Below are positions 16,761 through 28,305 of a stretch of 64,000 nt of DNA, one piece after another; within the stretch, counting starts at the first letter, position 1, and each line of letters starts with the position of its first letter. Both the position numbers and the translations under genes were made by a program. A model generated the notes under the pieces. The model was not told where the DNA came from, made no database searches, and was given only the letters and a program-made list of their open reading frames with translations. The stretch is from a virus: the IMG/VR virus record IMGVR_UViG_3300025849_000010, positions 64,001 to 128,000 of that record; one strand, given 5' to 3'.

Positions 16761-16879
16761 AAACATTATTACATTCGTAATAATGCAATTATATCATATA
16801 TTAAATCATTTAAATTAAACGAAGTGATGTAGTTTGAGCGTTAGCGATAACTAAAATGAGCTTTAGCTCATTTCTAACA

Positions 16880-27483: not shown

Positions 27484-27512
27484 AAAATAGCACCTTCGGG
27501 TGCTATTTTTTT
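27484..27512 (+). terminator. Rho-independent terminator after the capsid gene
   Basis: aaaatagcacc-TTCG-ggtgctatttt followed by more Ts; cUUCGg tetraloop. Confidence 0.92.
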
Positions 27513-27609
27513 GACTAAATTTTAATGATTTTACGGATGACTTTTAGGTACAAATATGTTTAAATAGTAATGTAGTAAATTTTTATTAACTTAATTTATG
27601 GAGTACACT

Positions 27610-27681
27610 ATGTGGACAACACCGAAAGCAACAGAGATGAGATTCGGCTTCGAAGTAACGATGTATGTGATGAACAAGTAA
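27610..27681 (+). CDS. pqqA: Pyrroloquinoline quinone precursor peptide PqqA
   Basis: 23 aa MWTTPKATEMRFGFEVTMYVMNK with the W-x-x-P...R-x-G-F-E-V-T-x-Y pattern (E-x3-Y core); GGAG RBS 6 nt upstream; below the ORF track cut-off. Confidence 0.92.
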   Translation: MWTTPKATEMRFGFEVTMYVMNK

Positions 27682-27742
27682 CAACATTACCAGAAGTAGA
27701 TATGAGCAAGCTAATAGAAACATTAGATTGTGAGTAAAACAT

Positions 27743-27767
27743 AGCCCGCATATTAGCGGGCTTTTTT
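27743..27767 (+). terminator. Rho-independent terminator after pqqA
   Basis: agcccgc-atatta-gcgggct followed by a T run. Confidence 0.88.
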
Positions 27768-27888
27768 GTCTGCATATAATGCTTTCAGTCGATATGGATA
27801 AATACTTTTGTTATAGAGATATCCTCTATTGCGAGGAATTATGCGGAAACCCGCCGCGTAGACCTAGAACGTCAAAAAGGAGAAAACA

Positions 27889-28305
27889 ATGGGACGTCCA
27901 CTTAATAAAAGATACTTCGGAGAACCAACTGCCGGAGGAAACGAAATCAAAGTACAATTTCACAATGGAACAGCTAGTGTAAACGGCTGGATCGTTAAAC
28001 AAAAAGGTTCAAAAAAATTCTTATGCTCAGACGGAACTGTCGAAGCAACATGTGTACTAGTTGACAAAGCATCAGGCGCAGTAGCAGCTGGTGAAATGAC
28101 TATTACAGTACTTGACGGTGCAACACCACGTCAGGTAACAAAGATTGCTGCACACAAAGTAACAATGGATAACGGTTTAACTATTAACTGGGACTTCACT
28201 GGAACTGGTGCAACTGTTGAAATGGAAGAAGCAGGCGATGATGCTGTTATCGACAATGTAGGCGTTGATGAAGACGACTTCGAAGGCGATGACCCAGCAC
28301 CATAA
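27889..28305 (+). CDS. Hypothetical virion structural protein
   Basis: AAGGAG RBS, late promoter TAAATA at 27799-27804, beta-rich composition, first gene of the structural operon. Confidence 0.65.
   Translation: MGRPLNKRYFGEPTAGGNEIKVQFHNGTASVNGWIVKQKGSKKFLCSDGTVEATCVLVDKASGAVAAGEMTITVLDGATPRQVTKIAAHKVTMDNGLTINWDFTGTGATVEMEEAGDDAVIDNVGVDEDDFEGDDPAP

What the first reader, a model, noticed from the sequence alone, without database searches (positions are those of the whole stretch)
27513..27767. Stand-alone pqqA cassette right after the major capsid gene
Seen: 23 aa ORF MWTTPKATEMRFGFEVTMYVMNK with an RBS, bracketed by two terminators, with TAAATA at 27561-27566. No pqqB/C/D is recognisable in the window. 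Known: PqqA supplies the Glu and Tyr of PQQ, the cofactor of methanol, alcohol and glucose dehydrogenases, and is consumed stoichiometrically. Inference: this is an auxiliary metabolic gene that boosts host PQQ supply. From memory the sequence is closest to Methylophilaceae-type PqqA, which would point to a methylotroph host. It is too short for normal gene callers.
Basis: partly seen in the sequence, partly recalled or inferred. Interest (0 to 1): 0.8.

Follow-up and report, generated by a model that had tools for sequence, protein, structure and literature searches.

The report
Phage pqqA cassette with overprinted ORF
A large uncultured phage of methanol-eating bacteria carries, just behind its capsid gene, its own copy of the tiny gene whose peptide host enzymes convert into the cofactor PQQ; this helper gene is already known in such phages, but here a second, virus-only reading frame overlaps it and appears to be kept open by selection.

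Summary
Window 27610-27681 (+) encodes a 23-residue PqqA that scores about twice the curated cut-offs of both PqqA models. It has a Shine-Dalgarno sequence, lies between two intrinsic terminators and sits directly behind the major head gene. The 159.6-kb virus record has no pqqB/C/D/E.

The peptide is 22/23 identical to the commonest Methylophilaceae PqqA, so a methylotroph host is well supported. The same stand-alone gene is in every Methylophilales phage record that the GenBank search returned, mostly unannotated, and in at least 120 IMG/VR contigs. It evolves under the same constraint as the bacterial copies.

The auxiliary-gene reading is therefore supported but untested. It is also not new: Coutinho et al. 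2020 reported viral PqqA, and this scan has already noted phage pqqA in at least 102 other genomes.

New here is a virus-only cassette type. A +2 frame (27612-27737) starts in the ATGTG start site, crosses all of pqqA and ends in a conserved tail 5 nt before the terminator. Synonymous codons that would close this frame are avoided (1/43 against 37/68). The tail is linked to pqqA in 52 of 54 viral contigs and is absent from 361 Methylophilaceae genomes. Its role is unknown.

The parts
27484..27512 (+). Intrinsic terminator ending the major-head-gene transcript; it insulates the cassette on its 5' side
   Evidence: GC-rich hairpin with a TTCG loop plus a T-run
27520..27545 (+). Conserved upstream promoter element containing the 8-mer ATGATTTT, followed by a -35-like ATGACT at 27537-27542
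   Evidence: ATG[AG]TTTT or its complement occurs in 45% of viral and 49% of bacterial pqqA upstream regions, against 1.6-2.0% of control windows. It is nearly identical in 27/28 unique tail-bearing cassettes.
27557..27566 (+). It can be read as an extended -10 (TGn + TTAAAT) or as a near-late-type promoter.
   Evidence: Conserved in 27/28 unique tail-bearing cassettes. The hexamer lies exactly 35 nt after the upstream 8-mer, where other viral cassettes have CATAAT or TATAAT. The phage's own late word ATAAATA is absent here.
27600..27603 (+). Shine-Dalgarno GGAG, 6 nt before the ATG and 8 nt before the GTG
   Evidence: Sequence
27610..27681 (+). pqqA: 23-codon PQQ precursor peptide with Glu15-x3-Tyr19
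   Evidence: PF08042 40.9 bits and TIGR02107 39.9 bits; 22/23 identical to the commonest Methylophilaceae PqqA; pN/pS 0.24 on codons not fixed by the search pattern
27612..27737 (+). Overprinted +2 frame of 41 codons. It starts at the GTG inside the ATGTG start site, crosses all of pqqA and stops 5 nt before the terminator stem.
   Evidence: The frame is open across pqqA in 25/26 tail-bearing cassettes against 2/101 other viral copies; 0.068 is expected from codon usage. Stop-creating T at two-fold sites is 1/43 against 37/68 at safe sites. Public gene callers call it as a protein, in 13 unnamed clusters.
27696..27737 (+). Conserved C-terminal tail of the +2 frame (consensus V-D-M/I-x-K/R-L-L/I-E-T-L/Q-D-C-E-stop)
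   Evidence: 54 IMG/VR contigs match the tail pattern and 52 of them have pqqA directly upstream. All ten distinct spacings are 2 mod 3. Variation is codon-like and RNAalifold finds no consensus fold. The tail is absent from 361 Methylophilaceae genomes.
27743..27768 (+). Intrinsic terminator closing the cassette
   Evidence: 7-bp GC-rich stem, 6-nt loop and T-run. In all tail-bearing cassettes a terminator starts 0-6 nt after the +2 stop.

Best explanation
Window 27513-27768 is a self-contained transcription unit insulated by terminators. A T4-like phage of Methylophilaceae carries it in a variable slot behind its major head gene.

Shown:
- Frame 0 encodes a genuine PqqA of host type.
- It is stand-alone in every viral copy examined.
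- It is under the same purifying selection as the bacterial copies.
- The held part of the phage genome has no PQQ-pathway enzymes.
- Candidate hosts have PqqB/C/E and themselves keep several orphan pqqA copies.

Inferred:
- During infection the peptide is made from the phage template and handed to the host's PqqD/PqqE/PqqB/PqqC. These use up one peptide per PQQ molecule (established biochemistry).
- This keeps PQQ available, and with it periplasmic methanol dehydrogenase activity and energy supply, after host gene expression declines.

This cassette type also carries a second, virus-only reading frame. It starts at the GTG inside ATGTG and ends in a conserved acidic Cys-containing tail right at the terminator. 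Selection keeps it open, and it is probably translated at a low level by ambiguous initiation. Its role is not known. My guess is either a small trans-acting helper peptide, or a cis-acting leader whose terminating ribosome covers the terminator's 5' arm.
For: Family membership. Phage context (portal, protease, major head, baseplate).

Host type: the exact core occurs in at least 120 bacterial stretches, nearly all Methylophilaceae. The commonest bacterial peptide is 22/23 identical to the window's, and it is also the commonest viral one.

Spread in phages:
- tblastn finds the gene in Methylophilales phages MEP301, P19250A, Venkman, MEP401/402 and Melnitz x4, and in a spring-water podovirus.
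- At least 120 IMG/VR contigs carry it, falling into at least 8 multi-member context groups.

Specificity controls:
- An Acinetobacter-type PqqA core, validated on a real operon, gives 0 IMG/VR contigs.
- No PqqB-like gene occurs in 1.0 Mb of viral flanks.

Selection: pN/pS is 0.24 in viral and 0.25 in bacterial copies, on codons the search did not constrain.

Host machinery and dosage: Ca. Methylopumilus (1.27 Mb) has pqqC and pqqE plus three orphan pqqA copies. Only 24 of 129 bacterial copies are followed by pqqB.

Autonomy: two terminators, a conserved promoter block, and a next gene with its own late-type ATAAATA. Among phages with closely related major head (MCP) proteins, cassette presence needs 10 changes on the tree, at least 8 of them forced by well-supported branches.

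Overprinted frame. Experimental precedent for AUGUG double initiation: PMC9841429.

Published precedent for the auxiliary-gene reading: PMC7678222.
Against: - There is no expression, peptide or PQQ measurement of any kind.
- The record is estimated to be 44% complete, so pathway genes or a methanol dehydrogenase could lie in the missing part.
- If host protein synthesis stops, extra PQQ helps only if apo-enzyme or cofactor loss is limiting. That is an assumption.
- Viral and bacterial sets were collected with patterns that fix the core peptide.
- IMG/VR classification of short contigs was not checked one by one.
- The overprinting statistics treat 26 unique cassettes as independent, although they are related.
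- With the window's spacer (aligned about 5-6 nt), the E. coli data predict that AUG dominates strongly over GUG.
- The AlphaFold model of the +2 product is weak (pLDDT 68.7).
Confidence: 0.7

Rival explanations
1. Decoy or inhibitor. The phage peptide binds host PqqD/PqqE but is processed poorly, for example because of Lys6. This would shut down host PQQ synthesis or redirect the enzymes, rather than feeding the pathway.
For: Lys at position 6 was seen only in viral copies: the window and MEP301, with a Ser4/Lys6 variant. Positions 4-8 are the most variable part in viral copies.
Against: The commonest viral peptide is identical to the commonest bacterial one (25 viral and 52 bacterial copies). 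Glu15 and Tyr19 and the whole core are intact. Constraint equals that of the bacterial copies. A phage that depends on host energy gains nothing obvious from blocking methanol oxidation.
Confidence: 0.06
2. The peptide is a substrate for the phage's own enzymes. The genome carries about nineteen radical-SAM enzymes, and one of them could turn PqqA into PQQ or into a different product independently of the host.
For: Radical-SAM genes are abundant in this record (earlier notes e1-5729902 and e1-5729888). Four of them give weak hits to the PqqE model. Coutinho et al. suggested that phage radical-SAM proteins boost PQQ synthesis.
Against: The best PqqE-model score is 31.5 bits against a cut-off of 381, and it covers only the generic N-terminal core. 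No PqqD/RRE domain, PqqB or PqqC is present. Small phages of 35-44 kb with no such enzyme sets carry the same gene, so the common denominator is the host.
Confidence: 0.06
3. In this cassette type the selected product is the +2 frame or its act of translation (a regulatory leader). On this view pqqA is retained mainly as the scaffold from which the new frame was overprinted.
For: The +2 frame is kept open by codon choice and has a conserved virus-only tail that always ends at a terminator.
Against: Within tail-bearing cassettes the PqqA peptide itself stays fully conserved in the core and varies only where other copies vary. The part of the +2 product that overlaps pqqA is not conserved and simply follows pqqA's synonymous changes. 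Most viral cassettes have pqqA without the tail.
Confidence: 0.08
4. Neutral passenger: a recently captured host fragment, or an attachment-site remnant, with no role in the phage.
For: The cassette lies in a hypervariable slot whose content differs between close relatives.
Against: Viral copies differ from one another by a mean of 14 of 69 nucleotides but only about 2 residues. They are complete with promoter, SD and terminator. They occur in at least 8 unrelated context groups, including lytic T4-like phages. DNA similarity is confined to promoter plus ORF, unlike an att core.
Confidence: 0.03

Closest known systems
Orphan (non-operon) pqqA copies of Methylophilaceae chromosomes (PF08042 / TIGR02107)
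   Same: Same 23-residue peptide, 22/23 identical. Same stand-alone arrangement: only 24/129 bacterial copies are followed by pqqB, and Ca. Methylopumilus has three orphans. They share an upstream 8-mer.
   Different: The window copy is encoded in a virus with no PQQ enzymes. Its promoter is compact, with the element 35 nt before the -10 instead of about 58 nt. Lys6 is present. The overprinted +2 frame and its tail are absent from 361 Methylophilaceae genomes.
Viral PqqA of Lake Baikal T4-like Methylophilaceae phages (population VP_266; Coutinho et al. 2020, Microbiome 8:163, PMC7678222)
   Same: T4-like, low-GC (35% there, 37.9% here), predicted Methylophilaceae host, stand-alone PqqA, radical-SAM-rich genome, and the same auxiliary-gene interpretation.
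   Different: Those genomes also encode a methanol dehydrogenase, which is not found in the 159.6 kb held here. The paper does not describe the cassette's anatomy, its spread to cultured methylophages, or an overlapping frame.
Cyanophage psbA (D1 protein), the classic phage auxiliary gene that replaces a rapidly consumed host component (from general knowledge, not tested here)
   Different: PqqA is a 23-residue sacrificial substrate, not a structural subunit. No expression data exist for it.
Ambiguous AUGUG/GUGUG initiation sites in E. coli (Kohl et al. 2022, NAR 51:271, PMC9841429)
   Same: An AUGUG start behind one SD can produce products in frame 0 and frame +2. This was shown with reporters and labelled peptides.
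   Different: In E. coli the second frames are mostly short and unconserved. Here the +2 frame is 36-51 codons, is kept open by codon choice and ends in a conserved tail. Translation here is not shown.
Leader-peptide attenuators and arrest peptides (pyrBI leader, TnaC; from general knowledge)
   Same: A short ORF whose stop codon abuts a terminator, so a terminating or stalled ribosome could mask the hairpin's 5' arm. There is a weak sub-threshold Rfam match to Trp_leader at 27692-27769 (21 bits, gathering score 41).
   Different: No sensor logic or downstream regulated gene is evident, and the match is below threshold. A trans-acting peptide explains the conserved tail equally well.

Membership tests
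PqqA (PF08042 / TIGR02107) | Score above the curated cut-off of the family models | tested here: met
   PF08042 40.9 bits vs 21.1; TIGR02107 39.9 vs 20, matched over the full model length
PqqA (PF08042 / TIGR02107) | Short ribosomal peptide (about 20-40 residues) with conserved Glu and Tyr separated by three residues, the atoms that become PQQ | tested here: met
   23 residues with Glu15-Val-Thr-Met-Tyr19
PqqA (PF08042 / TIGR02107) | N-terminal leader of the family (Trp-x-x-Pro region) that PqqD recognises | tested here: met
   Trp2 and Pro5 are invariant in 103 viral and all bacterial copies. Binding itself was not tested.
PqqA (PF08042 / TIGR02107) | Genomic association with pqqBCDE | tested here: not met
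   None in the 159.6-kb record or in 1.0 Mb of viral flanks. This feature is not required in the host family either: most Methylophilaceae copies are orphans.
PqqA (PF08042 / TIGR02107) | Conversion to PQQ by PqqD/E/B/C | not testable with these tools
   Needs complementation or in-vitro cross-linking
Phage auxiliary metabolic gene | Host-derived metabolic gene inside a bona fide phage genome and maintained by selection | tested here: met
   Flanked by portal, protease, major head and baseplate genes. pN/pS is 0.24, equal to bacterial copies. It recurs in cultured phages.
Phage auxiliary metabolic gene | Expressed during infection with an effect on host metabolism | not testable with these tools
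   No transcriptome or culture is available
T4-type late promoter (TATAAATA) | Match to the late-promoter word used by this phage | tested here: inconclusive
   The window's late-type word ATAAATA occurs 12 times, mostly 36-65 nt before operon-first genes. The cassette has TTTAAATA instead, in a block conserved in 27/28 related cassettes, none of which has ATAAATA.
Overlapping gene by ambiguous AUGUG initiation | AUGUG start behind one SD, with a second frame open and under selection | tested here: met
   ATGTG at 27610-27614. Frame open in 25/26 vs 2/101; stop-avoiding codon choice p = 1.7e-9; indels in multiples of three.
Overlapping gene by ambiguous AUGUG initiation | Both products actually translated | not testable with these tools
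   The spacer of about 5-6 nt predicts AUG well above GUG by the E. coli data

The most novel reading that the evidence does not exclude
A subset of phage pqqA cassettes, including this one, is dual-coding. The single ATGTG start yields PqqA and, in the +2 frame, a virus-invented peptide of about 40 residues. Its conserved acidic Cys-containing tail ends on the terminator. It is either a new small factor that assists or regulates use of phage PqqA by the host pathway, or a translation-sensing leader that controls termination. This would be a natural, selected use of ambiguous AUGUG initiation and a case of gene birth by overprinting inside an auxiliary metabolic gene.
Probability: 0.5. Interest if true: 0.7.

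Novelty: new variant of a known kind. Interest (0 to 1): 0.5.

Why it matters
Phage-borne pqqA is the smallest auxiliary metabolic gene one could imagine. The phage brings only the sacrificial substrate of a cofactor pathway. It appears to be a near-universal signature of phages of Methylophilaceae, which are abundant methanol oxidisers in lakes and coastal seas. That makes it a practical host marker for uncultured viral contigs. It is also a reminder that gene callers and AMG surveys miss it.

The overprinted frame matters more. If it is translated, it gives a compact natural system for studying ambiguous AUGUG initiation, de novo gene birth in a 23-codon gene, and possibly a new regulator of PQQ supply or of termination.

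Tried and rejected
I used degenerate DNA patterns instead.
- Rfam found nothing at threshold inside the cassette. There were only sub-threshold terminator-like matches and a 21-bit Trp_leader match.
- A PqqE among the phage radical-SAM enzymes is rejected: 31.5 bits against 381, and no PqqD.
- An att-site or prophage-remnant origin is rejected: full promoter-to-terminator units, synonymous divergence, and presence in lytic T4-like phages.
- 'Host promoter retained intact' is only partly supported. The 8-mer is shared, but the spacing to the -10 differs: 35 nt in phages, and about 58 nt with a second half-site in bacteria.
- A conserved RNA hairpin as the reason for the conserved tail is rejected. 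RNAalifold gives no consensus structure on 25 unique tails, and variation is highest at third codon positions.
- The tail's Met as the start of an independent 11-codon mini-ORF is rejected. That Met is replaced by Ile or Val in many cassettes, and conservation continues upstream of it.
- A -1 frameshift near the pqqA 3' end is unlikely, because stop-avoidance also holds at codons 3 and 8.
- The AlphaFold model of the +2 product is uninformative.
- The 'Acinetobacter phage MD-2021a' pqqA hit is chromosomal DNA carrying pqqABCDE.

Full report
**What is in the sequence.**
- GGAG lies 6 nt upstream of the ATG.
- A GC-rich hairpin with a T-run closes the preceding gene at 27484-27512, and a second one closes the cassette at 27743-27768.
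- The peptide matches Pfam PqqA at 40.9 bits (cut-off 21.1) and the NCBIfam equivalog TIGR02107 at 39.9 bits (cut-off 20), over the full length of both models.
- It has the defining Glu-x3-Tyr (Glu15, Tyr19) and the Trp-x-x-Pro leader.
- The gene before it is the major head protein (phrog_138, 343 bits), preceded by scaffold-like, protease and portal genes and followed by baseplate and fibre genes.

The window is bases 64001-128000 of a 159,618-bp IMG/VR virus record estimated to be 44% complete. That record has one pqqA and no pqqB, pqqC, pqqD or PQQ-dependent alcohol dehydrogenase. Its many radical-SAM genes match the PqqE model only through the generic core (31.5 bits against a cut-off of 381).

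**Whose PqqA it is.** I scanned for the 11-residue core around the cross-link site, back-translated into a DNA pattern.
The titles are almost all Methylophilaceae: Methylotenera, Methylophilus, Methylovorus, Methylobacillus, Ca. Methylopumilus, OM43 and unclassified Burkholderiales/Nitrosomonadales MAGs, with a handful of odd MAG labels.
- The commonest bacterial peptide (52 of 129 copies) differs from the window's at one position (Ala6 to Lys).
- Window GC is 37.9%.

A Methylophilaceae host is therefore well supported, though the sequence alone cannot tell freshwater from marine lineages.

**It is a general property of methylophages.**
- tblastn against GenBank phages finds the same stand-alone ORF in MEP301, P19250A, Venkman, MEP401/402 and the four Melnitz records, and in an uncultured spring-water podovirus.
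- In these records it is unannotated or covered by an ORF called on the wrong strand.
- The only other hit, 'Acinetobacter phage MD-2021a', is plain chromosome carrying ppk and pqqABCDE.
- None of these loci (1.0 Mb in all) holds a PqqB-like gene (the query is a verified PqqB).
- As a specificity control, the Acinetobacter-type core, validated on that real operon, gives zero IMG/VR contigs.

**Selection.** The core is fixed by my search pattern, so I measured selection on codons 1-8 and 20-23 only.
- pN/pS is 0.24 for 103 unique viral sequences and 0.25 for 112 bacterial ones.
- The window differs from other viral copies by a mean of 14.4 of 69 nucleotides but only 2.1 residues.
- DNA similarity to other cassettes is confined to promoter plus ORF, 27519-27681 at most.

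These are working genes, not debris.

**Why a lone pqqA makes sense.** Candidate hosts have the processing enzymes. They also treat pqqA as a dosage gene.
- Ca. Methylopumilus universalis (1.27 Mb) has pqqC and pqqE at 577-579 kb and three orphan pqqA copies elsewhere. Another Methylophilaceae genome has four copies.
- Only 24 of 129 bacterial copies are followed by pqqB.
- By established biochemistry, PqqE with PqqD cross-links Glu and Tyr of PqqA, and the peptide is consumed. The reference is Barr et al. 2016, cited.

The inference is that the phage supplies the one consumable of the pathway so that PQQ, and with it methanol dehydrogenase activity, is sustained during infection. The logic is the same as for cyanophage psbA (general knowledge). 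Coutinho et al. 2020 (PMC7678222) proposed exactly this for T4-like, 35%-GC, radical-SAM-rich Lake Baikal phages predicted to infect Methylophilaceae. The present phage looks like a relative of those. Their suggestion that phage radical-SAM proteins boost PQQ synthesis finds no support here.

**Expression signals.**
- The 8-mer ATG[AG]TTTT or its complement lies upstream of 45% of viral and 49% of bacterial pqqA copies, against 1.6-2.0% of control windows from the same loci.
- In bacteria it is part of a dyad of TCATGA-like half-sites further upstream.
- In viral cassettes a -10-like hexamer sits exactly 35 nt after the 8-mer in 58% of cases. In the window that hexamer is TTAAAT (27560-27565), preceded by TG, with ATGACT at the -35 position.
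It belongs to a 10-nt block, TGTTTAAATA, conserved in 27 of 28 unique cassettes of the window's type.
- The word found before operon-first late genes of this phage is ATAAATA: 12 sites, including one at 27798 for the next gene. None of the 28 cassettes has it.

I therefore read the cassette as having its own promoter, most simply of host sigma-70 extended -10 type. A late-type reading cannot be excluded from sequence alone.

**The slot.**
- Among the 80 closest major-head relatives (81-88% identity), the gap to the next conserved gene ranges from 170 nt to over 1.7 kb, and few have pqqA there.
- A wider sample shows 28 contigs with the cassette behind the head gene on the same strand, and one lineage with a different pqqA on the opposite strand.
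- On a head-protein tree the cassette needs 10 gains or losses, at least 8 of them forced by well-supported branches, although it is more clustered than random.
- These are quick trees, and 'absent' means absent within 2.5 kb of the head gene.
- The same cassette type also sits between a virion protein and the gp32-like SSB gene in another T4-like group.

It behaves as a moron that comes and goes.

**The overprinted frame.** An earlier first-reader note on another genome prompted me to test the +2 frame.

In the window a GTG two bases after the ATG opens a 41-codon frame (27612-27737) that stops 5 nt before the terminator stem. Across 103 viral pqqA copies this frame closes after a median of 7 codons, and only 3% run past the pqqA stop. 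The few that do share a similar C-terminal tail.

A pattern for that tail finds 54 IMG/VR contigs.
- 52 have pqqA immediately upstream.
- The ten distinct spacings (14 to 47 nt) are all 2 mod 3.
- A terminator follows within 0-6 nt of the stop.

In 26 of 27 unique cassettes the frame is open from before the pqqA start.

Codon choice explains how the frame stays open.
- At two-fold Y-ending codons where T would create a +2 stop, T is used in 1 of 43 cases, against 37 of 68 at safe codons in the same sequences (p = 1.7e-9).
- The other 101 viral copies show no bias (132/214 against 125/211).
- For example, Phe12 is TTT in 14 of 25 but Phe14 in 1 of 26.
- The expected chance of an open frame is 0.068. 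The observed counts are 25/26 against 2/101.

Other features of the frame:
- The tail's Met is often Ile or Val, so the start lies upstream, most simply at the GTG.
- The overlapped part is not conserved as protein.
- The linker varies by Glu-Val repeats.
- The tail varies mostly at third positions and has no consensus RNA fold.
- The tail pattern is absent from 361 Methylophilaceae genomes and from the 120 bacterial loci.
- Public gene callers call this frame instead of pqqA, in 13 unnamed clusters without Pfam domains.
- Double initiation at AUGUG has been shown experimentally in E. coli. With a spacer like the window's, AUG should dominate.
- An AlphaFold model is weak: pLDDT 68.7, two helices.

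The main caveat is that the 26 cassettes are related, so the statistics overstate independence. Even so, synonymous sites elsewhere in the same sequences have clearly turned over.

**Verdict.** The basic phenomenon is published, and this scan has already noted it on other DNA: 165 notes in at least 102 genomes. What raises this cassette above 'one more copy' is the virus-only dual-coding architecture, which I could support statistically but not explain.

Noticed in passing
window 27821-27891 (+): Rfam 'freshwater-2 RNA' (RF02980) matches at 52.1 bits (gathering score 49.9, E 5e-7). It lies in the 5' UTR of gene 27889-28305, just after a late-type ATAAATA at 27798. The stretch 27795-27886 is conserved in head-gene relatives (L309, L319/L321, L106/L112).
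   Followed up: partly
window: ATAAATA at 16879, 19022, 22838, 23431, 27798, 34291, 54143, 62922 (+) and 62903, 23871, 19043, 5799 (-): This 7-mer lies mostly 36-65 nt upstream of the first genes of structural operons. It is probably the phage's late promoter word.
   Followed up: partly
L330 (CAKLQF020000010.1, 105-111 kb): The GenBank record named 'Acinetobacter phage MD-2021a' is ordinary chromosome here: polyphosphate kinase followed by pqqABCDE.
   Followed up: yes
L004 (Melnitz-1, gene _151) and L331 (MW202481, UOF77531.1): The annotated 'hypothetical protein' lies on the strand opposite to the real pqqA. In MEP301, P19250A, Venkman and MEP401/402, pqqA is not annotated at all.
   Followed up: yes
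bacterial loci, e.g. L142, L152, L166, L173 (100-140 nt upstream of pqqA): Chromosomal Methylophilaceae pqqA copies carry a dyad of TCATGA-like half-sites (9-nt period) plus a third half-site about 20 nt downstream. This is a candidate operator for an unknown regulator of pqqA.
   Followed up: partly
G002 (Ca. Methylopumilus universalis chromosome): A streamlined 1.27-Mb genome keeps three orphan pqqA copies (416, 457 and 1186 kb), none next to pqqC/pqqE (577-579 kb).
   Followed up: partly
L367 (IMGVR_UViG_3300034407_001903): This contig has a 100% identical major head protein and identical tail DNA. Its PqqA has Thr6 instead of Lys6, and the promoter spacer differs, which suggests recombination within the cassette.
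   Followed up: no
L376, L382, L377; proteins P0009, P0012: The linker of the +2 frame expands by 6-nt Glu-Val repeats (two to five units) between pqqA and the conserved tail.
   Followed up: no
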